From an uncultured Candidatus Saccharibacteria bacterium (lineage in GTDB: Bacteria; Patescibacteriota; Saccharimonadia; CAILAD01; JADZBC01): DNA of 64,000 nt. How positions within the stretch are numbered: the first letter of the stretch is position 1; each line of letters starts with the position of its first letter. This document shows, piece after piece, positions 6,090 to 56,570 of this stretch. The translations under genes and the position numbers were made by a program. The stretch is from positions 7,501 through 71,500 of the forward strand of contig CAYPSN010000004.1 of assembly GCA_964413715.1 (NCBI GenBank), read 5' to 3'. Under the pieces are notes generated by a model. That model saw only the letters and a program-made list of their open reading frames with translations. It had not been told where the DNA came from and did not search any database.

Positions 6090-6165
6090 CAGGGTGTGGC
6101 GCAGTAGGTAGCGCGTACGGCTGGGGGCCGTGAGGTCGCAGGTTCAAGTCCTGTCACCCTGACCA
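6090..6165 (+). tRNA. tRNA-Pro, anticodon GGG, CCA encoded
   Basis: Hand-folded 76 nt cloverleaf: acceptor CAGGGTG/CACCCTG, D-stem GCGC/GCGC, anticodon stem TACGG/CCGTG with loop cTGGGgg (U33, G37), T-stem GCAGG/CCTGT, T-loop TTCAAGT, discriminator A, CCA. The minus-strand ORF 6023..6229 ('GLEPAT..') is its translation shadow. Confidence 0.85.
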
Positions 6166-13850: not shown

Positions 13851-13857
13851 GGCAAAG

Positions 13858-29900: not shown

Positions 29901-32900
29901 TGAATTCGCCCTGCCTTCAGAGGGAGGGAAAGCTATTGCAGTAGACTCGCAAGAGCACATCTACGTAAGTGGCGATGAGTGGAGTGGGCCTTGGTACTTG
30001 AGGGAGGGCAGGCCATATATCCGAAAATATGATTCTCAAGGCAACTTGCTACTAGATTGGGGCACGGAAGGTACCGGAGACTCTCAGTTTAGGGTGACTG
30101 CTCCGCATGATCTTGCTATTGATGGCAATGATGATCTGTATGCTGCAGACATGTATAACAATAGCGTTAAGAAATTCGATAGCAATGGTAGTTTTATCTT
30201 GAAGATTGGCGGAATGGGCCCATATATATATGGAGCAGGTCAGAGTAATGGGGAGTTTGATCATCCCGCCTCATTGGCTGTTGATGCGAATAACAATGTA
30301 TTTGTAGGTGACTATAGCTGGAGAATTCAAAAGTTTGGCATCTCTGGTGTATTTAAATCCAGCTCGCATATTGCAAATGGTGGCTTGTCTTTTGATGTGG
30401 ATGCTGAAGAGAATCTCTTTGTGGCTACTTGGGGTAATCCAAATCAACTTATCAAATATTCCTCAGGTATTGAATCCGCTATCTCAGGCCTAGTATGTGG
30501 CAACACTTATCACTACCGTGCCTTTGCAACAAGCACTGATGGTACGAAATATGGTGACGATGAAGTATTTACAACAGACGCTTGTCCTGACACTCCAATT
30601 TCAATAACGACGTCCTCCCTCTCTACAGGGTATGTGGGGCAGAATTATAGCGAGATCATTAATGTCACTGGTGCTACTGGAAACGTATCATATTTCCTAT
30701 CAGGCGGATCGGACTACCTGCCCTCTGGTTTAAGCTTGGACCCAAACACAGGTGTTATCTCCGGCAACCCGCAAGCCTCTGGAACCGCCAACATTTGTAT
30801 CCGGGCAATGGACGACAACTCGGATGACTTGAGGTGTTGGGATTTAACCATACAGAATATCGTTCCACAGCTAGAAATTACGACCCCGTTATTGCCGGAT
30901 GCCACCCTGTCTGGTATGCAATACGATTACTACAATTCGAACATTTATGTGCAGGGTGCTATAACTAACGACGTTGCGTTTACAGTAGTTAGCGGTGAAT
31001 TGCCTCCCGGACTTAGCCTCCAAGACAACACTTATTATGCAGCTATAATTGGCACTCCAACACAGGCCGGAGTATATACGTTCACAGTCGAGGCAAACGA
31101 TGGCTGGAGAGGATCACCTGGGTTTGCGTGGCAAGAATATACTATTGTTGTTCCTCCTACTTCACTTCCTAGTCTCTATATTGATACCACTTCACTCAGC
31201 AATGGCCTTGTAGGTATCCCATATAATTCCACTATTTACTATCAAGATGCTCAATCTCAACCTGTCTTCTCTCTTGTTTCCGGCTCGTTGCCACCAGGTA
31301 TTTCTTTAAGCCTGGAAGGCTACCTCCAGGGTACACCTACTGAGGCTGGCACCTACACCTTCACAGTCCAAGTTGACGATGGCTTTAGCAGTGACACCCA
31401 AGAACTCACCTTGACTATAGCCCCGCCTCCACTGCCTATAGTAAACACCCCATTCGTAACCATTACCTCACCAACTACAGGATCTACCTTTGCCGGTGGA
31501 ACAAGCGTTATAACTGGTACTGGTCCTGCCAATCAGACTATTACTATCTTCGTAGATAACCAGCAAATAGGTACTACCGCTGCCAACTCTGAAGGAATAT
31601 GGACGTATACTGCACAGAACATTGCAGCCGGTAGCCACAACTTGGACGCCAAGTGGGTGCCGGGAGCAGAGGTGATGTTTAGAACCTCTCTGGACTTTGC
31701 TGCTCTCACTACAAAGCTGACAGTTTACGACACGGCGACTGACACTGTAGTCAAAGAGTTGGCGTTGCCCCCATACGCATTTGCATGGGGCGCGTATGTT
31801 CCGCCTCAAGGTCAAAAAATTGTGGCCTATGGTATAGATGCGAGTTCTACATTCGGGACTTACTGGCAAATAGATCTAAATTCTGGCGCCATCACTACTA
31901 TTTCTACTGGCAGTACCGTTTATCCCAATGACATGGCAGCTAACAGAGATACTATGTTTACATCGGTAGCTGGCGGACTTTTTGCGACTCGGGTGTCAGA
32001 TGGCTCCTCACTTGGTCCGATTAATCTTGGCATCCCTTCAGAGCTGAACATTCCTTTTAACTTACAGCTCTCTGAAGACGGTACACGACTTTACGCCTAC
32101 TCGGGTATCGTAACTGGTTTGCCTTCTTTCCTTTCATACTCAAATAATTGGCTCGAGCAAGCCCTGCCATACATGGGGAAGATATTCGTCATTAATACGT
32201 CTGACCTGAGTGTTATTAGTAGTTATAATACAATTGATAATACTAATTGGCAGACAGAAGGGTATGAAGTTCCATTTGGGTTTGCCTATGCCAATGGAGT
32301 CGCATATGTGCCATCTGGAAGTTATCCTGCGACTCAAACCCCTCCTGACTTTGAGGTAGAAACTAATTTCAAGGCATATTCCTTGTCAAGTGGCGCATTA
32401 TTATACAGTCACAATATCTCTGCTGATTACCCGCAGGATGATATCCTTGCAGGGGGGGGTTACATCGATTCTACTCGCGGCAATGTATTCTTTAAGACTA
32501 TTAGTATTGATAATGACCAGTCAGTGCTTAAACCTGGCCTTGCTCGATGGAATTTAGTAAGTAATTCGGTCGATCAATACACGGTTGTATCTGATCAGAT
32601 TCAAGAAGGGCAGGATAACGCCTCCCTGGCCGACATGTATCTATTGAACTTTTTGAGTTGGGGTATGGATGGGGGGGGAAATAATGAGCGCTTGTATCTT
32701 ACAGGTCTAGGGGGCAATTATACTGGCGTTACTTACGCATTCTCACTTTCTAATAATCAATTTGTAGAGGGTAGCGGCTATCCGCTTACACACGGCACAC
32801 CTGGTAGTTCCATTGCATACCAATTTGGCCCCAACTTCATCGGTCCTATCACCCCACCTAAGGACAGTATGGCCTTCTCTGTACCATCGACTCCTGAGCC

Positions 32901-33450
32901 TCCCGCCTGCCAGCAACAGGGCAATTGCCCTCCAGTAGACTGTAATGCAACCAATACCTGTCCTAAGCCCTGTACTCTGACGAGTGGCACCTGCCCCCAG
33001 CCATGTACTGCCACCAACTCATGTCCTCAGCCTCCACTAACAGACTGTACCACCACCAACTCCTGCCCTGGTACTACTACCACCGGTGGCACTACAACCA
33101 CTCCTACCATTATCTCCACACCATTCCCTCCAGCCTCCAAGGCTACACCCACGAACTCACGCCTGGGTTGGTTTGACCGTAGCGTCCTCTCGCTTGCACG
33201 CTTTATCCCCGAGCAAGCTGCCATTGGCTTCCCATATCTCTTGTTTATGCTTCTGCTTGTCTTTGCTTTATCTCTCTATTACCAGAGTAGTAATGAAATA
33301 CGCAAAGATGCCTTAAACAAACAGTTCCTCGCTAAACGTAAATCTATTCGTGCCCAACAGGACAACTTCATAGCTCTAGCCTCGCACTACCTCAACACTC
33401 CTATCACCATCATCCAGGGCGGAGTAGAGAATGAGGAGAGGAAACGTTGA
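26995..33450 (+). CDS. Giant (2151 aa) two-TM cell-surface protein paralogous to 6288..11474. Same architecture: TM, NHL propellers, Ig-like domains, Cys/Pro stalk, TM, HisKA H-box tail.
   Basis: Near-identical N-terminus ('MADKAKLLLQRFHLKPSTTLKVSKGAVFVLLAMISIQTVAGGLLWYAKQIRA'). NHL repeats ('LDSGNNRVIKYSSNGSY', 'VADTANHRIQKFDANGSF', 'ADMHNARIQKFSSTGSF'). Ig-like 'SGSLPPGLSLNSSTGVISGTPTLAGQY'. Stalk 'CPKPCTLTSGTCPQPCTATNSCPQPPLTDCTTTNSCP'. TM2 'FPYLLFMLLLVFALSLYY'. Tail 'QDNFIALASHYLNTPITIIQGGVENEERKR*'. Confidence 0.8.
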   Translation: MADKAKLLLQRFHLKPSTTLKVSKGAVFVLLAMISIQTVAGGLLWYAKQIRAASGLQHVKSYAEGDGSGKIIAADSQNNFYVFDLSDYVVKKYDAGGNLLGQVGASGSDPGQYANVSGMATDSSGNLYVLDSGNNRVIKYSSNGSYSGTSWGSYGTGDGEFGSLGSIAISSADDIYIVDAGNSRIQRFNSSGGFVNKWGSAGSGAGQFNYPYGITTDSTGSVYVSEGFSGRVQKFGAAGGAPTATWTPGGWGGYMARGPGDVIYVTSLGGLVIRSYNTSGILQNSWGGSGGGAGTFSGPYLDGTLALDTSGNVYVADYGNAHIQKFTAAGSYVGVYIGRGKASGVQDVATDGSGGNIYQVGNGYLRKIRRSDGKLVFSTSITGSSVDVSPDGNYVYVLASGWADPNARVTKLTSSGTVVTQWGTFGEAENQFKGAEALAVGEDGSVYVADTANHRIQKFDANGSFLLMWGWGVQNGTAEFQTCTSGCQTGIAGNGDGQFDMTDWYGTGPNRGLDVDSQGNVYVADMHNARIQKFSSTGSFFGKWGSFSDAQGGFKYPYAISIDSQDNIYVSCILGAGERIQRFNSNMQFVSEFTTAGNLVLSNPQGIAVDEQGHLYVADTSNNRIQQFKYNFWLSISNTGGGDGVTGQPYTSTVGIDDPQGPTTFTVTSGSLPPGLSLNSSTGVISGTPTLAGQYTSYITVSDGQTSAVTPGTTITITDPPPAPLAFSSAPLPHARVGRSYSQHVDLNNVVGTAHYELINAQPWNSGLSFNPQTGMITGTPNSNSPTVRFSLEAYDDRWWVTSTTVTVTIESAHTVTTLPATGLEDTITGIKAVLNGATNYPDEITNRGFEYGLDTNYGNTVVDNTANSSYKAAQTWNTVASGTTMSNANESMTMDAGGNSYIVDSFNSRILKYSKTGVLLATWGSAGTGQVEFNAPADIAIGPSGNFYVVDAGNNRVQILNSSGLYVGEFALPSEGGKAIAVDSQEHIYVSGDEWSGPWYLREGRPYIRKYDSQGNLLLDWGTEGTGDSQFRVTAPHDLAIDGNDDLYAADMYNNSVKKFDSNGSFILKIGGMGPYIYGAGQSNGEFDHPASLAVDANNNVFVGDYSWRIQKFGISGVFKSSSHIANGGLSFDVDAEENLFVATWGNPNQLIKYSSGIESAISGLVCGNTYHYRAFATSTDGTKYGDDEVFTTDACPDTPISITTSSLSTGYVGQNYSEIINVTGATGNVSYFLSGGSDYLPSGLSLDPNTGVISGNPQASGTANICIRAMDDNSDDLRCWDLTIQNIVPQLEITTPLLPDATLSGMQYDYYNSNIYVQGAITNDVAFTVVSGELPPGLSLQDNTYYAAIIGTPTQAGVYTFTVEANDGWRGSPGFAWQEYTIVVPPTSLPSLYIDTTSLSNGLVGIPYNSTIYYQDAQSQPVFSLVSGSLPPGISLSLEGYLQGTPTEAGTYTFTVQVDDGFSSDTQELTLTIAPPPLPIVNTPFVTITSPTTGSTFAGGTSVITGTGPANQTITIFVDNQQIGTTAANSEGIWTYTAQNIAAGSHNLDAKWVPGAEVMFRTSLDFAALTTKLTVYDTATDTVVKELALPPYAFAWGAYVPPQGQKIVAYGIDASSTFGTYWQIDLNSGAITTISTGSTVYPNDMAANRDTMFTSVAGGLFATRVSDGSSLGPINLGIPSELNIPFNLQLSEDGTRLYAYSGIVTGLPSFLSYSNNWLEQALPYMGKIFVINTSDLSVISSYNTIDNTNWQTEGYEVPFGFAYANGVAYVPSGSYPATQTPPDFEVETNFKAYSLSSGALLYSHNISADYPQDDILAGGGYIDSTRGNVFFKTISIDNDQSVLKPGLARWNLVSNSVDQYTVVSDQIQEGQDNASLADMYLLNFLSWGMDGGGNNERLYLTGLGGNYTGVTYAFSLSNNQFVEGSGYPLTHGTPGSSIAYQFGPNFIGPITPPKDSMAFSVPSTPEPPACQQQGNCPPVDCNATNTCPKPCTLTSGTCPQPCTATNSCPQPPLTDCTTTNSCPGTTTTGGTTTTPTIISTPFPPASKATPTNSRLGWFDRSVLSLARFIPEQAAIGFPYLLFMLLLVFALSLYYQSSNEIRKDALNKQFLAKRKSIRAQQDNFIALASHYLNTPITIIQGGVENEERKR

Positions 33451-43836: not shown

Positions 43837-44352
43837 ATGAGTGGCAAGCGCTATCTGAGCTATCGAGACCAAGAATGGCTAGAGAACATGCTAGCAGAGG
43901 TTTGGTATGCTCATTTCGAAGACGTGCCACAGAGAAACGAAGTTCGTATCGTCTATGGCAGGAAGGCGAGGCGGCGGTTAGGTTCGATTGGTTGGGATAA
44001 GCACGACAAGAGCATTAGTGTAATCACTATTAACCCAATATTCCAAGACCTAGAAGTTCCAGAATACGTTGTAAAAGCAACAATTGTTCATGAAATGACA
44101 CACTATGCCCATGGCTTTAATTCTCCACTTGAACAAAAGCACAAACATCCGCACAGTGGCGGGGTAATTCGCCGAGAGTTTGCCGAAAGAGGGCTCGAGC
44201 AGTTGTTTTTGGATCAGCAGGCTTGGCTGCAGGAACATTGGGTGGAGATCCTGATAAAGCATTATCCAAACGAGCGATTCGTTGCGCGACCAACTAATGG
44301 TGGCCGCCGACCATCTGAGCCGATGCCATGGTGGATGGGTGGTTTACGCTAA
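43837..44352 (+). CDS. SprT/DUF45-like putative zinc metalloprotease
   Basis: 'ATIVHEMTHYAHG' HExxH motif in a protein of about 170 aa with an SprT-like layout. Confidence 0.45.
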   Translation: MSGKRYLSYRDQEWLENMLAEVWYAHFEDVPQRNEVRIVYGRKARRRLGSIGWDKHDKSISVITINPIFQDLEVPEYVVKATIVHEMTHYAHGFNSPLEQKHKHPHSGGVIRREFAERGLEQLFLDQQAWLQEHWVEILIKHYPNERFVARPTNGGRRPSEPMPWWMGGLR

Positions 44353-44464
44353 AGCTTGTAAAATTATGTAAAATGTGCTAGAGTATCACTACTGTTCTTG
44401 CAGTAACTTTGGTGCATCCCGCGCCGAAGAGGACCTATCCGCTACGGCGGGAAAGAAGGTTAGG

Positions 44465-44803
44465 ATGGCTACCATCACGGCAACTTGCAGTGACTGCGGG
44501 GATGTCGAACTGACCAGTGCAGACGTCACCGTACGTGTCTGCAGTGCCAACTCGGCAGGGAGCTACAGCTTCGCATGCCCCACTTGTGGACGTCTCGTGG
44601 TCAAGTCCGCAGAGCCACGCATCGTGGAACTGCTGGTGACGTCAGGTGTCCGTCTGGTCACCTGGCATCTCCCCGACGAGATGTATGAGGCCTTCGGTCG
44701 AGAAGGCGATCCAGAAATCGATCACGATGACCTGCTGGACTTCCATGCACTCCTGCAGCGTGACGACTGGATCGATGTGCTGCGCAGGATGACGCCTGGC
44801 TGA
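44465..44803 (+). CDS. GC-rich small CxxC...CxxC zinc-ribbon protein of apparently foreign (high-GC Gram-positive-like) composition
   Basis: 'MATITATCSDCGDVELTSADVTVRVCSANSAGSYSFACPTCGRLVVKSAEPRIVELLV...'. Codons are strongly GC3-biased, by eye around 60% GC against high-40s % around it. RBS 'AAGAAGG' lies 7 nt upstream. The 44375 ATG of the ORF track is probably not the start. Confidence 0.45.
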   Translation: MATITATCSDCGDVELTSADVTVRVCSANSAGSYSFACPTCGRLVVKSAEPRIVELLVTSGVRLVTWHLPDEMYEAFGREGDPEIDHDDLLDFHALLQRDDWIDVLRRMTPG

Positions 44804-44840
44804 GCTGGGCGAGAACAACAGAGGGGCGTACCTCTCACGT

Positions 44841-44875
44841 GGGCCCGATCAACTTCGATCGGGCCCCTTGCTTTG
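44841..44875 (+). terminator. GC-rich perfect 10 bp stem terminator closing the GC-rich gene
   Basis: 'gggcccgatc aacttc gatcgggccc' followed by a T-rich tract. Confidence 0.55.
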
Positions 44876-44922
44876 TAGTAATTTCGTTTTGTGTTCGTAT
44901 TGGCGTGGTGTATAATACGCTT

Positions 44923-45996
44923 ATGGAAGTTTTGGTGGGCATACTTATACTTGTTATGATATTGGGCTTTGGTGCAGTTCTGTTTGTGCTGTCGCGCAAA
45001 GGTGGCAACACTGCGGCTGATGGCTCGTTGGCTATGCTCAAGCAAGATTTGCAAGGTATGAGCCAACTCCTTGCCCAAACGCAGTCTCAGTTGGGTGAGA
45101 GGCTCGATAAAAATAACGATGCTATGCGCGATTCGATTCATAAGCAGATGAGCGAGTCGGCTAGGCTGATTTCGGACGTTACAGAGCGCCTGACGAAGCT
45201 TGATGACACTAATAAGCGCGTTGTAGACGTGGCAGATGAACTTAAAACGTTACAGAATGTACTGCAGAACCCCAAGCAACGCGGTGTATTAGGCGAATAT
45301 TACCTCGATACTGTTCTAAAGAACGTTTTACCACCGGATAGGTACAAACTACAGTATAAGTTTAGTGACGGCGAAACGGTCGACGCGGTAATTTTCTTGG
45401 AGCAAGATAAGATTCTGCCGATTGATTCGAAGTTTAGCTTAGAAAACTACAATCGGCTGGTCGATGAGCAAGACAAAACGCAGCGTGAGATTCTTATAAA
45501 ATCATTCAAGCAAGATTTGAAGAACCGCATTGACGAAACATCTAAGTACATTCGGCCAAATGAGGGTACGATGGACTTCGCCTTTATGTTTATTCCATCC
45601 GAAGCTATTTACTATGATTTGCTCGTTAATAAGGTAGGGATGGTGCAAACATCGTCGCGTGACCTTATCGAATATGCATTTCGAGACAAGAAGGTGATTA
45701 TAGTATCGCCCACGTCATTCATGGCCTACTTGCAGACCGTCCTGCAGGGCTTACGCTCTTTGCAGATCGAAGAGCAGGCCAAAGAGATCCAGCTGCGCGT
45801 TGGGCAACTTGGCCAGCATTTGAGAGCATTCGACACCTTTATGCAGAAGCTCGGTAACTCGTTGGGCACCACCGTAAATCACTTTAATAGTGCCCACAAA
45901 GAGCTGAAAAAGGTTGATAAAGACGTAGTGAAGATTTCGGGCACAACCCCTGCCGTAGAGAACCTGCTGGTTGATAAGCCGAGTATGGACGAGTAA
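44923..45996 (+). CDS. rmuC: DNA recombination protein RmuC
   Basis: N-terminal TM and coiled coil, then 'QRGVLGEYYLDTVLKNVLPPDRYKLQYKFSDGETVDAVIFL..DKILPIDSKF' (RmuC core). The start is taken at the ATG 'MEVLVGILIL', not inside the upstream terminator. Confidence 0.75.
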   Translation: MEVLVGILILVMILGFGAVLFVLSRKGGNTAADGSLAMLKQDLQGMSQLLAQTQSQLGERLDKNNDAMRDSIHKQMSESARLISDVTERLTKLDDTNKRVVDVADELKTLQNVLQNPKQRGVLGEYYLDTVLKNVLPPDRYKLQYKFSDGETVDAVIFLEQDKILPIDSKFSLENYNRLVDEQDKTQREILIKSFKQDLKNRIDETSKYIRPNEGTMDFAFMFIPSEAIYYDLLVNKVGMVQTSSRDLIEYAFRDKKVIIVSPTSFMAYLQTVLQGLRSLQIEEQAKEIQLRVGQLGQHLRAFDTFMQKLGNSLGTTVNHFNSAHKELKKVDKDVVKISGTTPAVENLLVDKPSMDE

Positions 45997-48219: not shown

Positions 48220-49196
48220 AGCCAGCAGATATTATTTCACGAGCTCAGCAGGAGGCGTCGAATGCAAAGCGACAGAACGACCTACAGTTAGTGAAGGCCC
48301 AGTATTTGGGCAAGAAAAGCGTACTACAGGCAGAAATGAAGGCACTAGGCGGTCTCTCGTCTGAAGAGCGCAAGAAGAAGGGGCGAGAGCTCAATCAGCT
48401 TAAGCAAGAGCTGGAAAGGCTTTTTACTGAGCGTGAAAAATCTCTGATTATTGAACTCGATAGCCTACCGCCGATGGACCTTTCGACACCAGGAATCGGA
48501 ACGCAGTATGGCCATGCCCATCCGGTTACACTCGTAATGGAAGAGCTGTACGCAGCTTTTACACGACTTGGTTTTGCGATTGTAGATAGTAATGAGATCG
48601 AAGACGATTGGCATAATTTTGAAGCACTCAATATGCCACCGCATCATCCAGCACGGGATATGCAAGATACTTTTTATATTAAAGACAAGCAGGCAACCAA
48701 TACAATTTTGCCGCGAACTCATACATCTGGTATGCAAGTACGTTTCATGAAAGAAAATAAGCCGCCTTTTAAGATCATTGTGCCGGGTAAAGTTTTTCGT
48801 AACGAAGACGAAGACAAGACTCACTTGTGGTCATTCACACAGGTTGAAGGTCTGGTGGTGGGCGAGGGTGTCTCGGTAGCGCACCTTAAAGGTACGTTAC
48901 TAGCAGTAATGCAGGATCTGCTTGGCGAAGAAACCGAAATTCGCTTGCGACCAAGCTATTTTCCGTACACCGAGCCCTCGATTGAGATAGATGTGAGTTA
49001 CAAAGGCGAGTGGTTGGAGTTACTGGGGGCAGGCATGGTGCACCCTAAGGTGCTGCAGAATGCGGGGATTGATCCGGAGATTTACACTGGCTTTGCTTTT
49101 GGGCTTGGCCCTGAGCGCATTGCCATGGTGAAGTATGGCATAACTGATTTACGGCATTTTTGGCGACCGAATCTGTCCTACCTGGAGCAATTTTAA
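48216..49196 (+). CDS. pheS: Phenylalanine--tRNA ligase alpha subunit
   Basis: Class II motifs: 'FRNE' (motif 2 region), 'RPSYFPYTEPSIEIDV', and 'GAGMVHP...GFAFGLGPERIAM' (motif 3). Confidence 0.9.
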   Translation: MKPADIISRAQQEASNAKRQNDLQLVKAQYLGKKSVLQAEMKALGGLSSEERKKKGRELNQLKQELERLFTEREKSLIIELDSLPPMDLSTPGIGTQYGHAHPVTLVMEELYAAFTRLGFAIVDSNEIEDDWHNFEALNMPPHHPARDMQDTFYIKDKQATNTILPRTHTSGMQVRFMKENKPPFKIIVPGKVFRNEDEDKTHLWSFTQVEGLVVGEGVSVAHLKGTLLAVMQDLLGEETEIRLRPSYFPYTEPSIEIDVSYKGEWLELLGAGMVHPKVLQNAGIDPEIYTGFAFGLGPERIAMVKYGITDLRHFWRPNLSYLEQF

Positions 49197-52009
49197 TGAA
49201 AATATCTGTAAACTCACTTAATTCTTACCTGAAAAACAAGCTTTCAGCTGAACAGATGGTGGAGCGTCTGCTGATGACCGAAGTGGAGGTGGAAGAGATT
49301 ATAACTCCTCATCAGGAGTGGGACGAGCGCATCATTGTGGCGCACGTCGTGACAGTACAGCCGCATCCGGATGCAGACAAGTTACGCTTAGCGCAAGTAG
49401 AAACTGGCAGCGGCAAAGTTGAGGTTGTTTGTGGCGCGCCAAATTTGGCCGAAGGGCAAATGGTGGTGCTGGCGCAAGAAGGTGCAGTTTTGCCAGACGG
49501 TTTAAAAATCAAAGCTAGCAAGCTGCGTGGCGTTATTTCGCACGGCATGCTGTGTTCAGCCAAGGAGCTGGGTATTTCAGACGACCACAACGGTATTCTG
49601 GTTCTGCCAGAAGACTCACCTGTTGGAACAACATTGTGCGACATATGGCAAAAGGGGAATGTCTTGGATATAAAGACGCCTGCAAATAGGTGGGATTACC
49701 TCAGTTTGATCGGTTTGGCTAGGGAAGTCGCAGCCAAAGATAAGGGTAATCAGCTGATTTTGCCTAAATCTAAGCAATTAACATATAAAGACACAGAAAT
49801 TGTAGATGTCAAGGAAAGCGGGGAGTGTAGACGCTTCGTTAGTGTGAAAATGAGGGTAGACAATTCCGTGAAAAGTCCGCAGTGGATTGTGGATAACTTA
49901 GAAGAGAACGGTTTGCGCAGTATTAATCCTGTTGTAGATATTACGAACTTTGTAATGCTCGAAACCGGCCAGCCCTCTCATGCGTATGACGCCAAGAAAA
50001 TCACTGATGGGCTTTGTGTACGCTTTGCCTCCCCTGCCGAAAAACTTACAACATTAGATGACGTAGAACGAACGCTAACCAGTGAGGATCTTGTGATAGC
50101 AGATGGACGTGGTCCAGTGGCACTAGCTGGTGTGATTGGTGGAGCTAACAGCGAAGTCGATACCAGTACAAGCGAAATAATCCTGGAAGTGGCGAATTTT
50201 GATAAAACGCGGGTGCGCAAGGCCGCAATTCGCCATGGGGTACGAACTGAAGCATCGGCTCGATTTGAGCGCTCTCTCCCCTTGCCACTTCCCCTGCAGG
50301 CAGCGGAACGTTTGGTGGATTTATTATGTCAGGTGGCGCAGGCCGAAGTCATTGACTCCCCTGTCGATCAGCTCTATGGTTGGCCCTGGGTACAGCACGT
50401 TGGTTTACGCCTGCGTAAGGCCGAGCGAATATTGGGCGTTAAGTTAGATGAGCGTGAAGTGGTCGATGGCCTCAGTCGACTTGGCTTTGACGTAGAACAC
50501 TTTAGTATTACTAAGGAACTGCGCAAGCATTTGGGAAAACCTTATATCTGGGGTGCGAATTTTAAACAGCATGGAGATACAGGTTTTGACTGCTCTTATC
50601 TGATAGACAGGGTGTATTCGAAAATTGGCGTACGGGTTGGGCACACCGCATTGGGTCAGTATCATCATGGCCGGCCAGTTGAAGTTGGTGATCTGAAGCC
50701 TGGTGATGTAGTGTTTTATGGTGGCAAAATCGAAAATTCAGTAACGGACCACTACTATACGACAGATGATGCCGGTAAGCACACTAAGGTGACATTGCCG
50801 AAGCCACTGGCTGTAGGGCATAACGGAATTTATATAGGTCAAAACAAGGTTATTACCGCTATTCAATACGAGCGAAAGGGTGACGACTGGGTAAAGCGAG
50901 AAAAGCAAGGCGTTTTAGAAGTGCCTCTGAGCGATTTTGTGAACGATCCAACGTATCTTGGCGCACGTCGATACGTGGAGAACTTTAATCATATTCTGGC
51001 AGTAGTGGCACCATGGTGGAGGCTGGACATTCGTAATGAGGAAGATTTGGTGGAAGAAATCGTTAAAATCGTAGGCTATGACGCCATTGCCGCCGAGATC
51101 CCTTCCCTGCCGCCAACAAGCTCACACAAGCATCAACTTTTACCAAGCCTGCAAAATCTTAAGAAGGTTATGATAGCCAGCGGCTTACAAGAAATCGTGA
51201 CATATTCATTCATTAGCCAGGCCGCACTCGATGCACTCCAAGACACACGTGAGCATTTGGAAATAGCCAACCCGCTGAGCAGCGAACAGCAGTTTTTGCG
51301 CCGCAGTATGCTGCCTAGCCACCTAAAGGTTATCCAAGACAACCAGGGTTACAGTAAGCAGTTTGGCTGCTTTGAAATAGCCAGAACGTATCAGCCGACT
51401 CAGGACGGTGCGTTACCACAAGAAGAATGGAAGATAGCAATTTTCGCAGTTGGTAAGGACAGCTTGATGCGCGTAAAGGGCGCAGTTGATCTGCTGGCAC
51501 GCCACACGCAACTTGATTATGATGTGAAGCCGACTGATTTGATTAACTTTGTTGCTGGCCGATCGGCCGAACTAAATATAGAGAAACAGAACATCGGCTT
51601 GATTGGTCAAGTCGGCAAAACTCTATTGGCCACCTATGATATTCGCCATGAAGTGAGTGTGGCCGAAATAATCTTATCGGAGAACATCTTTACTCATTTA
51701 CCTAATGCTGTGGTGGACTTACCACCCTATCAGCTTATTCAGCGCGACATGTCGTTTATTTGTAATCAAGACATTCTATGGCAAGAGGTTGAATCGTTAC
51801 TCAAGCAAGCAGGCAACGTCTGGTCGGTTCAGTATCTGGGAGTATACGAGGATGACAAGCTAGTGCGGGATAAGCGAAAAAACATTACTTGCCGCATGAA
51901 GCTCGATTTAGGCGCCAATCCAACTGCCGAACAGATTCAAGAGGCAATGGGTAAACTGGGTAATAAGCTGGTGCGAGGTTTGCCGGCAGGAAATATTGTA
52001 ATCAACTAG
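49196..52009 (+). CDS. pheT: Phenylalanine--tRNA ligase beta subunit carrying an inserted NlpC/P60 papain-like peptidase domain in the B5 region
   Basis: 'MKISVNSLNSYL' N-terminus (TAATG overlap with pheS). tRNA-binding, B3/4 and B5 ('LSRLGFDVEHF') domains, and the C-terminal catalytic-like and anticodon-binding regions ('WRLDIRNEEDLVEEIVKIVGYD'). Inserted at about 50503-51000: 'KPYIWGANFKQHGDTGFDCSYLIDRVYSKIGVRVGHTALGQY...GDLKPGDVVFYGG...GHNGIYIGQNKVITAI'. Confidence 0.85.
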   Translation: MKISVNSLNSYLKNKLSAEQMVERLLMTEVEVEEIITPHQEWDERIIVAHVVTVQPHPDADKLRLAQVETGSGKVEVVCGAPNLAEGQMVVLAQEGAVLPDGLKIKASKLRGVISHGMLCSAKELGISDDHNGILVLPEDSPVGTTLCDIWQKGNVLDIKTPANRWDYLSLIGLAREVAAKDKGNQLILPKSKQLTYKDTEIVDVKESGECRRFVSVKMRVDNSVKSPQWIVDNLEENGLRSINPVVDITNFVMLETGQPSHAYDAKKITDGLCVRFASPAEKLTTLDDVERTLTSEDLVIADGRGPVALAGVIGGANSEVDTSTSEIILEVANFDKTRVRKAAIRHGVRTEASARFERSLPLPLPLQAAERLVDLLCQVAQAEVIDSPVDQLYGWPWVQHVGLRLRKAERILGVKLDEREVVDGLSRLGFDVEHFSITKELRKHLGKPYIWGANFKQHGDTGFDCSYLIDRVYSKIGVRVGHTALGQYHHGRPVEVGDLKPGDVVFYGGKIENSVTDHYYTTDDAGKHTKVTLPKPLAVGHNGIYIGQNKVITAIQYERKGDDWVKREKQGVLEVPLSDFVNDPTYLGARRYVENFNHILAVVAPWWRLDIRNEEDLVEEIVKIVGYDAIAAEIPSLPPTSSHKHQLLPSLQNLKKVMIASGLQEIVTYSFISQAALDALQDTREHLEIANPLSSEQQFLRRSMLPSHLKVIQDNQGYSKQFGCFEIARTYQPTQDGALPQEEWKIAIFAVGKDSLMRVKGAVDLLARHTQLDYDVKPTDLINFVAGRSAELNIEKQNIGLIGQVGKTLLATYDIRHEVSVAEIILSENIFTHLPNAVVDLPPYQLIQRDMSFICNQDILWQEVESLLKQAGNVWSVQYLGVYEDDKLVRDKRKNITCRMKLDLGANPTAEQIQEAMGKLGNKLVRGLPAGNIVIN

Positions 52010-53555: not shown

Positions 53556-54014
53556 ATGAGTGCCAGAAGGCAAAGGCATATGCAACCAATAATCACACCT
53601 GATAATCAGAACATTCGTGCTGCTACTGGGCCGAGTGAACCGAGGCAGCCCAGCGGGCAATCTGCTGAGCAGCTGCCGGTACAAGAAAAGCAGGTGGTTT
53701 CAGCTGCCGAAACTGCACCGCCTACTCCACAAGGTCAGCCAGTCGCCGTACCGATGGCTCAAGCGCCATCTCAACCGGCAGTGGCTGCCAGCTCGACACC
53801 CGCAGCCCCAGCCAATACTCCAAAGCATGCCGACCTTCAAACTGCTGGCGGAGACGACATCGAAAAGGAATGGGTTGATCGAGCAGATGCCATTATTCAG
53901 CAATACAGTAACGACCCCTATGCCGAAGATATGGAGCACGAAGACTTGAGTGCGGCGTATTTAAAAAAGCGTTTTGGCTTAGAAATTAAGCGGAGTACTG
54001 ACGGGGCGAAGTAA
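53556..54014 (+). CDS. Hypothetical Pro/Ala/Gln-rich low-complexity protein with a conserved-looking acidic C-terminal module
   Basis: 'APPTPQGQPVAVPMAQAPSQPAVAASSTPAAPANTP' then 'DIEKEWVDRADAIIQQYSNDPYAEDMEHEDLSAAYLKKRFG'. No family recognised. Confidence 0.3.
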   Translation: MSARRQRHMQPIITPDNQNIRAATGPSEPRQPSGQSAEQLPVQEKQVVSAAETAPPTPQGQPVAVPMAQAPSQPAVAASSTPAAPANTPKHADLQTAGGDDIEKEWVDRADAIIQQYSNDPYAEDMEHEDLSAAYLKKRFGLEIKRSTDGAK

Positions 54015-54035: not shown

Positions 54036-56570
54036 ATGGAATCACAAAATCAACTCTTTATCCTTTTTACTAGTCTCCTCGCCGTAGGGTTTTTGGGGTT
54101 ACTTGGTTTTGTATGCTTTCTGGTGTATCGCAAAATGGTTCGTCGCACGAAAGACATTGAACGCAGTTTAAAGCTCGTTCCGTTACAAATTAAACTACCC
54201 CCAGCCGAGGCCAGTGAAGCTGGTGGGCGCGACGTCCGCGAGCTGTTTAAGGAGAACATCTCAAAGGCCGAAGGGATTTTTAACTTACTCTCGGGTATCA
54301 CCGCTAATAAATCGCTCGTTTACGGCAATCGCTATGTCAGTTTCGAAATCATTGCCGATGGAACGATGATATATTTTTACGTTGCAGTGCCGGTGACGCT
54401 TTTATCGACCGTACAGAAGGCTTTGGTGTCTGGTTATCCAACTGTCCAGATTGAACAGGTGGATGATCCGAATATTTTTTCGCAAAAGAGTAAGCTTGAA
54501 GGCATAGCTGGCGGAGAGTTGGCGCTTGCCAACGAATCATACTTCCCCATAGCGACGTATAAGAATCGTGACAGTGATCCGTTGGCGGGGGTGCTTAGCG
54601 CGCTTTCGGCGCTCAAAGAGGGTGAAGGCGCGGGCATTCAAATTATGGTGCGTCCAGCGGACAAAAAATGGGCCAAGAATGCTCAGAAAAAAGCCAAAGC
54701 CTTGCTCGACCCCGAGGAGATTGCCAAGCGCAAATATACAGGTAAAAAGTTGTTACGTGACATCGCCATGGCCCCAGTGAAGCAACCAGGTTACTCCAAG
54801 AAGCTACAAGATGGCACCGTCCGCGAAGATCAAAAATTCCAGCCCGATGCCATTGATCAAAAAATGAGCCAACTGGTTGAAGAAAAGTACAGTGTGCCGG
54901 CTTTTGAAACTATGGTTCGGATAATTGCAAGCTCCGATGACCCACATCGCTCGCGAGCTACCGTTCAGTCAGTGCTGACTGGCTTTGCTCAGTTAGCGCT
55001 GCCAAACTCAAACCAGTTCAAGTTCGAACAAGCGAAGAGCCCTCAGCAGCTAGCAACAGATTTTATCTTCCGGTTCTTTCCTGCTGGCAAGAACAAGACC
55101 GTGCTGAACTCAACTGAGCTGGCTGGCTTGTTTCATTTTCCCGGTGAAGACATGCAGGTTTCAACGCCGGTGGTGCGTAAAGGTGCCCGCGAGGTGGCAG
55201 CACCACCCGACCTACCAAACGAAGGGCTCATCTTGGGGAGCAACATGTATCGCGGTCAAGAAACAGTGGTGCGTCTAACCGACGATGACCGCCGCCGCCA
55301 CGTTTACATAATTGGTCAAACAGGTACAGGTAAATCCATTTTTTTAGAGAACTGTATTGTACAAGATTTACACATGGGCAAGGGCCTCTGCTGCATGGAT
55401 CCACACGGTGAACTGGCAGAAAAGATTATGGCAAAAATTCCACCCCATCGACTTAAGGACGTGGTTTACTTTAATCCTGCCGACACCGATTACCCCCTCG
55501 GCTTTAATCTGCTTGAGTTTGATCCAGCGCACCCTGAGCAAAAGGACTTTCTGGTTCTTGAAGCTATCAATATGTTCTACAAGCTTTATGACCCTAAGGG
55601 CCAAGGTTTTGTTGGGCCGATGTTTGTGGATTGGTTCCGCAACGCTGCCCTAACGGTTATGTCTGACCCAGAGGGTGGGACGCTTATTGAAGTACCAAAG
55701 CTATTCACTAATGACGATTACTTAAAGCAAAAGTTCCGTCATGTAAAAGACCCTATCGTGCAGGAATTCTGGACAGGGCAAATGGCGCAAACCAGCGAGC
55801 ATAGCAAGAGTGAAATGCTTGGCTACTTTACTTCAAAATTCGGGGACTTTGCGAATAACGAGATTATGCGCAATATCATTGGTCAAAAGCACTCTAGCTT
55901 TAACCTGAGAGAAATTATGGATAATCGAAAAATTCTCCTCGTTAATCTGTCGAAGGGTTTACTCGGAGATATGAACTCAAAGATTTTGGGTATTGTTTTT
56001 ATCATTAAGTTTCAAATGGCCGCCATGAGTAGGTCTGACATGGACGAGAAAGATCGACAAGATTTTAGTCTGTACATTGATGAATTCCAGAACTATGCTA
56101 CTGATTCGATCTCAACCATTCTGTCTGAAGCACGTAAGTATCGCTTGAGCATGATCATGGCCAACCAGTTTATCTCGCAGCTCGAGGAGCCAATTCGCGA
56201 TGCTGTATTCGGTAACGTCGGTAATATGGTCGGATTCCGTGTTGGTCCCGAGGATGCGGAGTTTATGGCCAAGCAGTTTGCGCCACAATTCGATAAAGAT
56301 GACATTATTAACACTCCAAACTTCAATGCAGTAGCTCGCATTATCAATCGCGGTGTAGTTACACCGTCATTTTCACTCAAAGAAATATTTCCTCCAATTG
56401 GGGTAAAGACACCAGGTATTTACGAGCAGATGGTTCAGATTTCTCGCCAAAACTATGCGCGCCCTAAAGCCGAAGTAGCTGCCGAAATTGCCAAGGCACT
56501 CGAGGTCGTGCCATCTACGCCTCAGCCGGAACCGGGCAAAATGCCTATTAGTACTGGCCGACAGGGCTAG
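54036..56570 (+). CDS. Type IV secretion-type AAA ATPase (VirB4-like, possibly with a fused VirB3-like N-terminal TM, or a VirD4/TraG-like coupling protein)
   Basis: N-terminal TM 'LFILFTSLLAVGFLGLLGFVCFLVY'. Central Walker A 'IIGQTGTGKSIF' followed by 'MDPHGEL'. Walker B 'LYIDEFQNY'. 844 aa with the P-loop at mid-protein, as in VirB4. Confidence 0.5.
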   Translation: MESQNQLFILFTSLLAVGFLGLLGFVCFLVYRKMVRRTKDIERSLKLVPLQIKLPPAEASEAGGRDVRELFKENISKAEGIFNLLSGITANKSLVYGNRYVSFEIIADGTMIYFYVAVPVTLLSTVQKALVSGYPTVQIEQVDDPNIFSQKSKLEGIAGGELALANESYFPIATYKNRDSDPLAGVLSALSALKEGEGAGIQIMVRPADKKWAKNAQKKAKALLDPEEIAKRKYTGKKLLRDIAMAPVKQPGYSKKLQDGTVREDQKFQPDAIDQKMSQLVEEKYSVPAFETMVRIIASSDDPHRSRATVQSVLTGFAQLALPNSNQFKFEQAKSPQQLATDFIFRFFPAGKNKTVLNSTELAGLFHFPGEDMQVSTPVVRKGAREVAAPPDLPNEGLILGSNMYRGQETVVRLTDDDRRRHVYIIGQTGTGKSIFLENCIVQDLHMGKGLCCMDPHGELAEKIMAKIPPHRLKDVVYFNPADTDYPLGFNLLEFDPAHPEQKDFLVLEAINMFYKLYDPKGQGFVGPMFVDWFRNAALTVMSDPEGGTLIEVPKLFTNDDYLKQKFRHVKDPIVQEFWTGQMAQTSEHSKSEMLGYFTSKFGDFANNEIMRNIIGQKHSSFNLREIMDNRKILLVNLSKGLLGDMNSKILGIVFIIKFQMAAMSRSDMDEKDRQDFSLYIDEFQNYATDSISTILSEARKYRLSMIMANQFISQLEEPIRDAVFGNVGNMVGFRVGPEDAEFMAKQFAPQFDKDDIINTPNFNAVARIINRGVVTPSFSLKEIFPPIGVKTPGIYEQMVQISRQNYARPKAEVAAEIAKALEVVPSTPQPEPGKMPISTGRQG

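What the first reader, a model, noticed from the sequence alone, without database searches (positions are those of the whole stretch)
44375..44880. Compositionally foreign, GC-rich CxxC zinc-ribbon gene with its own GC-clamp terminator
Seen in sequence: 44465..44803 is visibly GC-richer than everything around it. Its codons are GC3-dominated, for example gtcgaactgaccagtgcagacgtcaccgtacgtgtctgcagtgcc. It encodes 'MATITATCSDCGDVELTSADVTVRVCSANSAGSYSFACPTCGRLVVKSAEPRIVELLVTSGVRLVTWHLPDE...' with two CxxC pairs, and it ends at a perfect 10 bp GC-rich palindrome (gggcccgatc / gatcgggccc). The protein looks like small conserved zinc-ribbon proteins of high-GC Gram-positives (Actinobacteria), though I cannot name the family. 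Inference: recent horizontal acquisition, perhaps from an actinobacterial host or partner, or a local assembly chimera. It sits between an SprT-like gene and rmuC without any mobility gene.
Basis: partly seen in the sequence, partly recalled or inferred. Interest (0 to 1): 0.55.

Follow-up and report, generated by a model that had tools for sequence, protein, structure and literature searches.

The report
Actinobacterial zinc-ribbon gene domesticated in Saccharibacteria
A small, GC-rich zinc-ribbon gene in this Candidatus Saccharibacteria genome was captured long ago from Aquihabitans-like Acidimicrobiales (Actinobacteria) and is still kept under selection, which is an ordinary kind of event but points to a testable candidate host for these epibiotic bacteria.

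Summary
ORF 44465-44803 (112 aa) has 59% GC in a 47% GC window. It is the GC-richest stretch and the only GC3 outlier among 48 ORFs. It ends before a perfect 10-bp GC-rich hairpin.

The window is from Candidatus Saccharibacteria. The gene belongs to an uncharacterised family that is a core, syntenic gene of Acidimicrobiia (pafABC...GDPD | gene | tatA-tatC-helY in 61 of 62 loci). The window protein is 86-89% identical to an Aquihabitans/Iamiaceae subclade, and it groups with that subclade in 99 of 100 bootstraps.

It is not a chimera. Sixteen contigs from different samples and assemblers carry it in the same context. It is also not recent. Four diverged relatives (flanking proteins 71-96% identical) hold it at the same SprT-like | rmuC site. 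GC3 has fallen from about 0.93 to 0.65-0.77, and dN/dS is 0.10-0.23. A more distant relative has SprT-like and rmuC 16 nt apart, which is the empty site.

Only the ORF matches donor DNA. The promoter-like site, leader and terminator do not. Other Saccharibacteria carry copies at two further loci, which suggests repeated capture.

Protein function is unknown. This is a well-documented horizontal transfer of moderate interest.

The parts
44353..44922 (+). Whole inserted intergenic segment (570 nt) between the SprT-like stop codon and the rmuC ATG. The homologous spacer in a relative without the gene is 16 nt.
   Evidence: L095 has the SprT-like stop at 178-180 and the rmuC ATG at 197, with no zinc-ribbon gene. 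None of 80 other RmuC loci holds the gene within 4 kb.
44356..44384 (+). Promoter-like site TTGTAA-N17-TAGAGT, read by eye. It is AT-rich and of recipient type.
   Evidence: The same position reads TTGCAA-N17-TATATT or TAAAGT in four relatives. It falls below the strict consensus scan. It has no match in donor DNA. Inferred, not shown.
44391..44464 (+). 5' leader of about 75 nt with three hairpins (44391-44404, 44406-44430, 44438-44451) and a GAAGG Shine-Dalgarno sequence at 44455-44459.
   Evidence: The consensus fold has 95.8% of cells paired and two pairs with compensatory changes in hairpin 2. The covariation score is reached by 22 of 500 shuffles, from only 5 distinct sequences. The single-sequence fold has z = -2.4. 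No Rfam match. Support is modest.
44465..44803 (+). CDS of 112 aa: a zinc-ribbon protein and xenolog of an Acidimicrobiia core gene. This is the only part with DNA homology to donors.
   Evidence: GC 0.593. 193 homologues found. 86-89% aa and 72-76% nt identity to Aquihabitans-like genes. dN/dS is 0.10-0.23 among Saccharibacteria copies. 41 of 43 family-conserved columns are kept. AF2 mean pLDDT is 85.
44821..44836 (+). First 3' hairpin, GAGGGG-CGTA-CCTCTC.
   Evidence: Conserved in five lineages with G-C to G-U changes only.
44841..44876 (+). Intrinsic-terminator-like hairpin (10-bp stem GGGCCCGATC/GATCGGGCCC, loop AACTTC) plus the T-rich tail CTTGCTTTGT.
   Evidence: Found by the terminator scan. 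Fold z = -4.1. The stem is conserved in relatives with one compensatory A-U to G-C change. No match in donor DNA.
44911..44925 (+). rmuC -10 box TATAAT (44911-44916), 6 nt before the rmuC ATG (44923). This marks the right-hand edge of the insert.
   Evidence: 'gtgtataatacgcttATGgaagttttggtggg' is conserved in all relatives. RmuC alignments start at this Met.
43837..44352 (+). Left flanking gene: a weakly SprT-like HExxH protein of 171 aa.
   Evidence: PF10263 at 19.5 bits, below the 25.6 cut-off. 71-72% identical in relatives.
44923..45996 (+). Right flanking gene: rmuC.
   Evidence: PF02646, E = 2e-58. 90-96% identical in relatives.

Best explanation
What it is. The window comes from a Candidatus Saccharibacteria (Patescibacteria) genome. 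ORF 44465-44803 is a xenolog of a small zinc-ribbon protein that is a core, vertically inherited gene of the class Acidimicrobiia. In that class it sits between the pafABC/GDPD genes and tatA-tatC-helY.

How it got there. An ancestor of this Saccharibacteria genus-level clade captured only the ORF from a high-GC (about 72%) Aquihabitans/Iamiaceae-like donor. The ORF landed in the short spacer between a SprT-like gene and rmuC.

What happened since. The gene has been domesticated. Around it lie a recipient-type promoter-like site, a structured leader of about 75 nt with a Shine-Dalgarno sequence, and a GC-rich hairpin terminator. None of these matches donor DNA. The gene has co-diverged with its flanks, evolves under purifying selection and keeps nearly all family-invariant residues. 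Its synonymous sites are drifting from GC3 of about 0.93 towards the recipient's 0.48 and now stand at 0.65.

What the protein does (inferred, low confidence). It is a cytoplasmic C4 zinc ribbon (residues 1-49) packed against a helix and a strand (51-67). An acidic linker joins this to two C-terminal helices that carry the invariant motif HDDLLDFH. It most likely acts by binding a conserved macromolecular partner, not as an enzyme. No homologue of its donor-side neighbours (TatA, TatC, GDPD, PafA/B/C, S26 peptidase) was found in this 64-kb window.

Wider pattern. Other Saccharibacteria hold copies at two further loci. The same donor gene has therefore probably been captured more than once. That fits a physical association between epibiont and host involving Aquihabitans-like Acidimicrobiales.
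For: Recipient identity. Syntenic relatives are titled Candidatus Saccharibacteria or Patescibacteria. Their flanking proteins are 71-96% identical to the window's.

The gene is native to the donor class.
- 61 of 62 Acidimicrobiia loci show GDPD(-) | gene | tatA-tatC-helY, usually preceded by pafA-pafB-pafC-S26 peptidase.
- In those genomes gene GC (0.67-0.72) matches genome GC (0.69-0.75).

The Saccharibacteria copies nest inside the donor clade.
- All of them plus the Aquihabitans-like subclade form a clade that excludes other Acidimicrobiia in 99 of 100 bootstraps.
- Identity is 71-92% to that subclade and 42-72% to other Acidimicrobiia.

The gene is foreign in the recipient.
- Gene GC is 0.57-0.62 and GC3 0.65-0.77, against flank GC of 0.46-0.50.
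- It is the only GC3 outlier among 48 ORFs.

The insertion is defined.
- The empty site in L095 has a 16-nt spacer.
- None of 80 other RmuC loci carries the gene.
- DNA homology to donors is confined to 44463-44816.

Not an artefact. 16 contigs from ENA (MEGAHIT and SPAdes) and Logan assemblies are 98.1-100% identical across both junctions.

Old and still functional.
- The locus is the same in L018, L019, L025 and L028.
- dN/dS is 0.10-0.23 and dS 0.6-1.2.
- 38-42 of 43 conserved columns are kept.
- The terminator stem and leader hairpin 2 keep pairing through compensatory changes.

Fold. AF2 mean pLDDT is 85, with the CxxC pairs at beta-hairpin turns. The profile gives a weak hit to the RPA12 zinc ribbon, E = 0.0016.

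Repeated capture.
- L030 has the gene between IleRS and an FtsW-side region. It groups with donor sequences, away from other Saccharibacteria copies, in 84 of 100 bootstraps.
- Its dS to most donor genes (0.75-1.1) is lower than to other Saccharibacteria copies (1.0-1.6).
- A long form sits at a GroEL...PGI locus and is fully ameliorated, with GC3 0.30-0.47.
Against: Function is not established.
- No Pfam, NCBIfam, PADLOC or PHROG family passes a threshold.
- No significant fold match in PDB or BFVD; the best E-values are 0.055 and 0.014.
- Every source calls the protein hypothetical.

Expression is inferred from signals and selection, not observed. The promoter-like site fails the strict consensus scan. 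Support for the leader structure is modest, with only 5 distinct sequences.

The tree is weak inside the donor-plus-recipient clade. The alignment has 109 columns and the method is neighbour joining. The syntenic window-genus copies are recovered as monophyletic in only 3 of 100 bootstraps. The number of acquisition events is therefore not settled.

The host inference from transfer is indirect. No co-occurrence or physical association was tested.
Confidence: 0.85

Rival explanations
1. Assembly chimera or contamination: a fragment of an actinobacterial genome was mis-joined into a Saccharibacteria contig.
For: The GC shift is abrupt. The source is a metagenome assembly.
Against: - 16 contigs from at least 8 samples and three assembly routes carry the identical protein in the same context. 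Several span both junctions at 98-100% identity.
- Four diverged relatives (gene 75-85% aa identical) have the same arrangement.
- The gene's GC3 of 0.65 is far from the 0.92-0.95 of real donor DNA.
- The insert carries recipient-type flanking signals.
Confidence: 0.01
2. One ancient acquisition in Saccharibacteria, followed by relocation within the genome or between Saccharibacteria. On this view the three loci (SprT|rmuC, IleRS locus, GroEL-PGI locus) descend from a single transfer, not from repeated capture.
For: - All Saccharibacteria copies trace to the same narrow donor subclade.
- The tree cannot resolve relationships inside that clade. Even the syntenic copies are not recovered as monophyletic.
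- Pairwise distances form a star pattern, which fits either scenario.
Against: - The copies are at very different stages of amelioration. Long forms have GC3 0.30-0.47, equal to or below native genes. Window-genus copies and L030 have GC3 0.65-0.77 in genomes of 46-50% GC. A single old transfer would not leave some copies GC-rich.
- L030 groups with donor sequences in 84 of 100 bootstraps. Its dS to most donor genes (0.75-1.1) is lower than to other Saccharibacteria copies (1.0-1.6).
- The leaders and flanks of the different loci share no similarity.
Confidence: 0.25
3. The gene is native to this Saccharibacteria lineage, or the transfer ran from Saccharibacteria to Acidimicrobiia. Its high GC would then reflect amino-acid or structural constraints.
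For: GC1 (0.65) is high partly because the protein is rich in Ala, Gly, Asp, Glu, Val and Arg. The gene is present in all sampled members of the genus.
Against: - GC3, which amino-acid content does not constrain, is the outlier (z = 3.5).
- The gene is absent from 80 other RmuC loci, and an empty site exists.
- In Acidimicrobiia the family is deep (down to 42-54% identity), universal in a fixed synteny (61 of 62 loci) and compositionally native. The Saccharibacteria copies nest in one terminal subclade.
Confidence: 0.03
4. The ORF is a decaying, non-functional remnant of transferred DNA, and the hairpin simply terminates the upstream SprT-like gene.
For: No known function, and none of the donor-side neighbouring genes came with it. 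dN/dS is somewhat higher than among donor genes, 0.10-0.23 against 0.02-0.17.
Against: - The reading frame is intact in every copy across dS of about 0.6-1.2, with dN/dS well below 1.
- 38-42 of 43 family-conserved residues are kept.
- The Shine-Dalgarno sequence, the promoter-like site and the terminator are conserved.
Confidence: 0.03

Closest known systems
Uncharacterised Acidimicrobiia small zinc-ribbon protein family (for example WP_426572831.1, a hypothetical protein of Aquihabitans sp. McL0605); no Pfam or NCBIfam model
   Same: - 86-89% amino-acid identity over the full length to the Aquihabitans-like members.
- The same five Cys residues and the same HDDLLDFH motif.
- 41 of 43 family-conserved columns are kept.

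   Different: - It is encoded in a Saccharibacteria genome, outside the pafABC-GDPD | gene | tatA-tatC-helY context.
- It has a 3-residue insertion in the linker.
- R5T and L73M substitutions.
- GC3 of 0.65 instead of about 0.93.
- Its promoter-like site, leader and terminator have no match in donor DNA.
Gene transfer between Saccharibacteria/CPR bacteria and other bacteria, and its use to guess hosts (PMC8406219; PMC11659515, which notes host speculation based on horizontal transfer; PMC9166423)
   Same: - A CPR epibiont carries a gene whose closest relatives lie in the phylum that supplies all experimentally known Saccharibacteria hosts.
- No mobile element is involved.
   Different: - The donor is Acidimicrobiales (Aquihabitans/Iamiaceae). 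My literature searches found no paper proposing this group as a Saccharibacteria host.
- The cargo is a single tiny regulatory-type gene, not a metabolic operon.
- It appears at three loci in different Saccharibacteria.
C4 zinc ribbons of the TFIIS / RPA12 C-terminal / TFE type and small archaeal zinc-finger proteins (HVO_2753, PF07754)
   Same: Two CxxC knuckles sit at beta-hairpin turns. The matches are weak: RPA12 E = 0.0016, PF07754 E = 0.008, and a TFIIE-alpha finger in BFVD with target-normalised TM-score 0.62 over 49 columns.
   Different: - All matches fall below family thresholds.
- There is a fifth invariant Cys (C26).
- There is an extra helix-strand element and a C-terminal two-helix acidic module, with no counterpart in those proteins.
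RbpA, the actinobacterial RNA-polymerase-binding protein (recalled from my own knowledge as an architectural analogue)
   Same: Similar size (about 110 aa) and layout: a beta-rich core that binds zinc in some species, a linker, and two C-terminal helices. It is also specific to Actinobacteria.
   Different: - No detectable homology (hhalign probability 0.25%).
- No PF13397 hit.
- The linker is acidic here and basic in RbpA.
- RbpA structures are absent from the top 50 PDB fold hits shown.

Membership tests
Horizontally acquired gene (xenolog) | Composition differs from the recipient genome, especially at synonymous sites | tested here: met
   GC is 0.593 against 0.472 for the window. GC3 is 0.655 against a mean of 0.483 (sd 0.048, z = 3.5). 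It is the only outlier among 48 ORFs.
Horizontally acquired gene (xenolog) | Phylogenetic nesting inside a donor clade where the gene is native | tested here: met
   In 99 of 100 bootstraps the Saccharibacteria copies plus the Aquihabitans-like subclade exclude other Acidimicrobiia. Donor synteny is conserved in 61 of 62 loci, and donor gene GC matches genome GC.
Horizontally acquired gene (xenolog) | Patchy distribution in the recipient group, with an identifiable empty site | tested here: met
   None of 80 other RmuC loci has the gene. L095 has SprT-like and rmuC 16 nt apart.
   DNA identity to donors is 72-76%. The gene is shared by at least 5 diverged lineages at the same locus. dS between copies is 0.6-1.2.
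C4 zinc ribbon | Two CxxC (CPxC) knuckles at beta-hairpin turns that coordinate one zinc ion | tested here: met
   C11, C38 and C41 are invariant and C8 is at least 90% conserved. The AF2 model has strands 3-8, 12-17, 32-37 and 44-49, with pLDDT of about 88-93 over residues 1-70. The RPA12 ribbon matches at E = 0.0016. Metal binding itself cannot be tested here.
Pfam PF07754 HVO_2753_ZBP / PF24441 DUF7560 | Score at or above the family gathering threshold | tested here: not met
   16.4 bits against a cut-off of 33.2, and 16.0 bits against 27.
RbpA (PF13397) | Sequence or profile homology to RbpA | tested here: not met
   hhalign probability is 0.25% over 10 columns. No Pfam hit.
Rho-independent (intrinsic) terminator | GC-rich stem-loop followed directly by a U-tract, placed after the stop codon | tested here: met
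   The stem has 10 bp (8 G-C), the loop 6 nt, and the tail is CTTGCTTTGT. It starts 38 nt after the stop codon. It is conserved with one compensatory change. The U-tract is interrupted, so efficiency is uncertain. Termination was not measured.
Mobile genetic element (IS, integron cassette, prophage, integrative element) | Integrase or transposase gene, terminal repeats, or attachment at a tRNA gene | tested here: not met
   No such domains occur in the flanking genes. The nearest tRNA is 38 kb away. The flanking segments have no repeat elsewhere in the window. PHROG hits are weak and of unknown function, and PADLOC finds nothing.
Known cis-regulatory RNA (riboswitch or leader) for the 5' UTR | Match to an Rfam covariance model | tested here: not met
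   No hit with E up to 1 in 44340-44930.
SprT-like (PF10263), for the left neighbour | Score at or above the gathering threshold; HExxH motif | tested here: inconclusive
   19.5 bits, below the 25.6 cut-off. The HEMTH motif is present in the translation.

The most novel reading that the evidence does not exclude
Environmental Saccharibacteria have repeatedly captured and kept one particular core host protein from a single narrow clade of Aquihabitans-like Acidimicrobiales. The evidence is three loci at different stages of amelioration. The protein is a highly conserved zinc-ribbon factor encoded next to tatA-tatC. Under this reading these Acidimicrobiales are the natural hosts, and the epibiont uses the host-derived protein to plug into or mimic a conserved host process. 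The gene would then be both a host-range marker and a host-interaction factor.
Probability: 0.15. Interest if true: 0.7.

Novelty: new member of a known kind. Interest (0 to 1): 0.4.

Why it matters
Hosts of environmental Saccharibacteria are largely unknown. Experimentally shown hosts are oral Actinobacteria, and little is known for other habitats (PMC8406219). Host guesses based on gene transfer remain unvalidated (PMC11659515).

This locus is a clean, datable transfer from one narrow and partly cultivable donor clade. Aquihabitans daechungensis DSM 27986 and Aquihabitans sp. McL0605 have complete genomes. The case therefore gives a concrete host hypothesis that can be tested by co-culture or co-occurrence.

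It also shows how a foreign high-GC ORF becomes domesticated in a reduced genome. Only the ORF was captured. A promoter-like site, leader and terminator with no match in donor DNA now surround it. Amelioration is partial and purifying selection continues.

Finally, it flags an uncharacterised, very strongly conserved small zinc-ribbon family of Acidimicrobiia, next to tatAC, as worth functional study.

Tried and rejected
- Family assignment. Pfam, NCBIfam, PHROGs and PADLOC gave only sub-threshold generic zinc-finger hits.
- Fold assignment. The AF2 model is good (pLDDT 85). Foldseek found nothing significant against PDB (best E = 0.055, FtsH N-domain) or BFVD (best E = 0.014). PDB sequence and profile searches gave only generic ribbons.
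- RbpA analogy. Tested by hhalign and rejected as homology.
- Domain fusions as clues to function. P0142 looked like a fusion of the zinc-ribbon protein with TatA. Its middle section is Arg/Gly/Ala-rich junk typical of a frameshift in high-GC DNA, so I treat it as an artefact. Other long hits have no Pfam domains.
- Donor origin of the leader or terminator. blastn found no match in actinobacterial loci or elsewhere in the window. An 8-mer, CCGCTACG, occurs both in the window leader and downstream of the donor genes. I judge this to be chance.
- Rfam search of the leader: nothing.
- A second foreign gene in the window. The next GC-rich stretch (53556-54014) is a Pro/Ala-rich ORF whose GC3 is not among the eight highest of 48 ORFs, so it is not a transfer signal.
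- Donor-side partner genes (tatA, tatC, GDPD, pafABC, S26 peptidase): none found in the window.
- Tree building. The first bootstrap run timed out. Neighbour-joining trees resolve the donor subclade but not the branching among Saccharibacteria copies.
- Literature. Searches found no paper on this family or on transfer from Acidimicrobiia to Saccharibacteria.
Full report
**1. The observation**

The region reads as the first-stage reader described it. ORF 44465-44803 encodes the 112-aa protein MATITATCSDCGD...RRMTPG. Its GC is 0.593 (GC1 0.65, GC2 0.48, GC3 0.65), against 0.472 for the 64-kb window.

Of all 339-bp windows (mean 0.472, sd 0.034), the richest, at 0.611, is 44529-44867. That stretch is the ORF plus its downstream hairpins. 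The best window elsewhere reaches 0.581. Among 48 plausible ORFs this is the only GC3 outlier (z = 3.5; the next is 1.5).

The 10-bp palindrome GGGCCCGATC/GATCGGGCCC lies at 44841-44866. It scores as an intrinsic-terminator-like site. The 3' region folds far better than shuffled sequence (z = -4.1).

The finding's start coordinate, 44375, is only the mechanical GTG start of the ORF. Every homologue starts at the ATG at 44465.

The neighbours are:
- a UvrD/PD-(D/E)XK helicase-nuclease;
- a weakly SprT-like HExxH protein, below the Pfam cut-off;
- rmuC (E = 2e-58);
- TrpRS.

No integrase or transposase is nearby.

**2. Whose genome, and is the junction real?**

The identical protein is encoded on 16 public contigs. 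They come from several samples and from MEGAHIT, SPAdes and Logan assemblies, always in the same context. Over 44201-45100 these contigs are 98.1-100% identical to the window, and several span both junctions. A chimera is therefore excluded.

Four diverged relatives carry the gene at the same site between the SprT-like gene and rmuC (L018, L019, L025/L015, L028/L011-14). Two of them are GTDB species representatives titled 'Patescibacteria group bacterium' and 'uncultured Candidatus Saccharibacteria bacterium'.

Amino-acid identity between the window and these relatives:

| Protein | Identity |
|---|---|
| UvrD-like | 73-75% |
| SprT-like | 71-72% |
| TrpRS | 79-80% (89% over the partial L019 copy) |
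| RmuC | 90-96% |
| zinc-ribbon protein | 75-85% |

The gene has therefore co-diverged with a genus-level Saccharibacteria clade.

**3. Where the gene comes from**

A search of 5.8 billion proteins found 193 homologues. All named ones are Acidimicrobiales or Actinomycetota 'hypothetical proteins'.

A scan of one genome per GTDB species returned 65 loci:
- almost all are Acidimicrobiia (Aquihabitans, Iamia, Iamiaceae, Microthrixaceae), including three complete Aquihabitans genomes;
- a few carry other labels (Acidobacteria, Bifidobacterium breve, Burkholderiales, Solirubrobacteraceae), most of them with the Acidimicrobiia context;
- three are Saccharibacteria/Patescibacteria species.

A profile search of 1.84 billion cluster representatives found 1,994 clusters at E ≤ 1e-3. 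The family is large but has no Pfam or NCBIfam model.

In Acidimicrobiia the gene is core and syntenic. In 61 of 62 loci with enough flank it is followed on the same strand by tatC and helY, with tatA detected in 58. A small membrane ORF sometimes lies in between. GDPD lies on the opposite strand upstream in 58 of 62 loci, usually after pafA-pafB-pafC and an S26 peptidase gene. There its GC (0.67-0.72, GC3 0.92-0.98 in high-GC members) matches the genome (0.69-0.75).

All Saccharibacteria copies, together with one narrow Aquihabitans/Iamiaceae-like subclade, form a clade that excludes other Acidimicrobiia in 99 of 100 bootstraps. The window protein is 86-89% identical to that subclade and 50-70% identical to other Acidimicrobiia.

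The direction of transfer is therefore Acidimicrobiales to Saccharibacteria.

**4. Anatomy of the insertion**

DNA similarity to donor loci is confined to 44463-44816, which is the ORF, at 72-76% identity. Nothing in the 112 nt upstream or the 119 nt downstream matches donor loci or any other part of the window.

A metagenome scan with RmuC returned 80 further RmuC loci (48-73% RmuC identity). None has the gene within 4 kb.

One of them, L095, keeps the SprT-like - rmuC - TrpRS order. There the SprT-like stop codon and the rmuC ATG are 16 nt apart. In the window the equivalent spacer is 570 nt (44353-44922).

Within that spacer the Saccharibacteria clade conserves:
- an AT-rich promoter-like site: TTGTAA-N17-TAGAGT here, TTGCAA-N17-TATATT or TAAAGT in relatives. 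This was read by eye and fails the strict scan;
- a leader of about 75 nt with three hairpins. The middle one has two compensatory pairs. Support is modest, with 5 distinct sequences and the covariation score reached in 22 of 500 shuffles;
- a GAAGG Shine-Dalgarno sequence;
- two 3' hairpins. The terminator stem shows one A-U to G-C compensatory change.

No Rfam family matches. I infer that the recipient supplied or evolved the expression signals.

**5. Age and selection**

GC3 of the Saccharibacteria copies is 0.65-0.77. The closest donors have about 0.93, and the window's native genes about 0.48. Amelioration is therefore partial.

Among the syntenic copies, dS is about 0.6-1.2 and dN/dS is 0.10-0.23. 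These copies keep 38-42 of the 43 columns that are at least 90% conserved across 64 Acidimicrobiia sequences. In the window the only changes are R5T and L73M.

The gene is old, intact and under purifying selection. It is not a recent arrival and not a decaying remnant.

**6. More than one capture?**

Three loci are now known in Saccharibacteria:
- The window genus: SprT-like | gene | rmuC.
- L030, another Saccharibacteria species: the gene follows IleRS, with an unrelated promoter and leader. This copy is 109 aa long, like the donor proteins. It groups with donor sequences in 84 of 100 bootstraps. Its dS to most donor genes (0.75-1.1) is smaller than to the other Saccharibacteria copies (1.0-1.6).
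- A rare long form: 165-196 aa, with a C-terminal extension ending in GPGGDINNA. Only four clusters exist in the 5.8-billion-protein database. It occupies a conserved GroES-GroEL ... PGI locus in further Saccharibacteria. The GroEL of L169 is 99% identical to a 'Candidatus Saccharibacteria bacterium' protein. This form is fully ameliorated, with GC3 0.30-0.47, at or below its neighbours.

Different loci and very different stages of amelioration favour at least two acquisitions from the same donor clade. However, the 109-column neighbour-joining tree cannot resolve branching inside the clade. Even the syntenic copies are monophyletic in only 3 of 100 replicates. A single capture followed by relocation therefore remains a live rival (about 0.25).

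**7. What the protein is**

AlphaFold2 with a 117-sequence alignment gives mean pLDDT 85. The predicted layout is:
- residues 1-49: five short strands, with C8/C11 and C38/C41 at hairpin turns (a C4 zinc ribbon);
- residues 51-59 and 63-67: a helix and a strand;
- residues 68-86: an acidic linker of lower confidence;
- residues 87-97 and 102-109: two helices that carry the conserved H87-D88-D89-L-L-D-F93-H94 motif. D89 and F93 are invariant and H87, D88 and H94 are at least 90% conserved across 117 sequences.

C26 is also invariant.

No significant fold match exists in PDB or BFVD. Profile and sequence hits are limited to generic ribbons: RPA12 at E = 0.0016, and TFE and HVO_2753 above 0.2. 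An architectural resemblance to RbpA was tested and is not homology.

No signal peptide or membrane segment is apparent by eye. No homologue of the donor-side neighbours (TatA, TatC, GDPD, PafA/B/C, S26 peptidase) was found in the window.

My best guess, at about 0.3 confidence, is a small zinc-dependent adaptor or regulator. It would bind a conserved macromolecular partner through its ribbon and its acidic helical tail. The very high conservation (mean column identity 72% in the 24-sequence alignment) fits such a role. Its donor-side linkage to tatA-tatC is the only functional lead.

**8. Comparison with what is known, and verdict**

Gene transfer into CPR bacteria has been discussed before, as has host guessing from such transfers (PMC8406219, PMC11659515, PMC9166423). 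My searches found nothing on this family or on Acidimicrobiia as donors.

- actinobacterial origin is supported;
- the event is not recent;
- it is not a chimera.

This is a new, unusually clean member of a known kind of event. Interest is moderate (0.4). It comes from the narrow and partly cultivable donor clade, the probable repeated capture of the same gene, and the uncharacterised but highly constrained protein family.

Noticed in passing
L169 7001-7507, L170 7001-7507, L171 3723-4220, L175 6001-6591: A rare long form of the same zinc-ribbon protein (165-196 aa) has a C-terminal extension ending in GPGGDINNA. Only four clusters exist among 5.8 billion proteins. It sits at a conserved GroES-GroEL ... 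PGI ... MacB/ABC locus in other Saccharibacteria. It is fully ameliorated (GC3 0.30-0.47). The more diverged members have lost C26.
   Followed up: partly
L169 6789-7001 and L171 3505-3723: An acidic ORF of 70-72 aa with no family assignment is translationally coupled to the long-form gene (its stop codon overlaps the ATG). It is conserved between two Saccharibacteria lineages and absent from L175.
   Followed up: no
L169 4057-6597 compared with L170 4147-6576: Two otherwise near-identical Saccharibacteria contigs differ in a variable island just upstream of the long-form cassette. One holds a 566-aa gene with 64% GC. The other holds a 238-aa gene plus a 569-aa HATPase_c_3 gene. This may be a hot spot for foreign DNA or defence genes.
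   Followed up: no
L030 8001-8330: Another Saccharibacteria species carries a 109-aa copy of the gene directly after IleRS. It has its own TTGCAA-N17-TATAAT promoter-like site and an unrelated leader. This looks like a separate acquisition.
   Followed up: partly
window 44839-44925: The mechanical rmuC ORF starts at GTG 44839, inside the terminator hairpin. The conserved start is ATG 44923, only 6 nt after a TATAAT box (44911-44916). This suggests a leaderless or nearly leaderless rmuC transcript.
   Followed up: partly
window 49160-52009: The PheRS beta subunit carries an inserted NlpC/P60 (and C92-like) peptidase domain at residues 459-527 or so. The same architecture is seen in all syntenic relatives.
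   Followed up: no
window 6288-11474 and 26995-33450: Two giant ORFs (1728 and 2151 aa) are built from NHL beta-propeller, He_PIG and PKD repeats. They are probably surface or adhesion proteins.
   Followed up: no
window 54036-56570: An 844-aa protein has VirD4/TraG-type coupling-protein domains of the type IV secretion system.
   Followed up: no
window 53556-54014: This is the second GC-richest stretch of the window. It is a 152-aa Pro/Ala/Gln-rich low-complexity ORF with no family. Its GC3 is not among the eight highest of 48 ORFs, so its high GC comes from amino-acid composition and it is not a transfer candidate.
   Followed up: yes
window 13421-13851, 26342-26729, 6090-6165: RNase P RNA (class A), tmRNA (tag peptide VNTLVSKVKAAFRMPSFAPAFA) and tRNA-Pro(GGG) are present and intact.
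   Followed up: no
L087 8382-8585; same position in L026, L084, L020 and L027: In Acidimicrobiia a small ORF lies between the zinc-ribbon gene and tatA. It is 67 aa with a predicted single membrane span and starts at a GTG about 50 nt after the stop codon. It was not transferred to Saccharibacteria.
   Followed up: partly
L019 8001-8342: One Saccharibacteria copy has replaced the first zinc ligand, Cys8, with His, and Gly12 with Asp. It keeps the other ligands and an intact frame.
   Followed up: no
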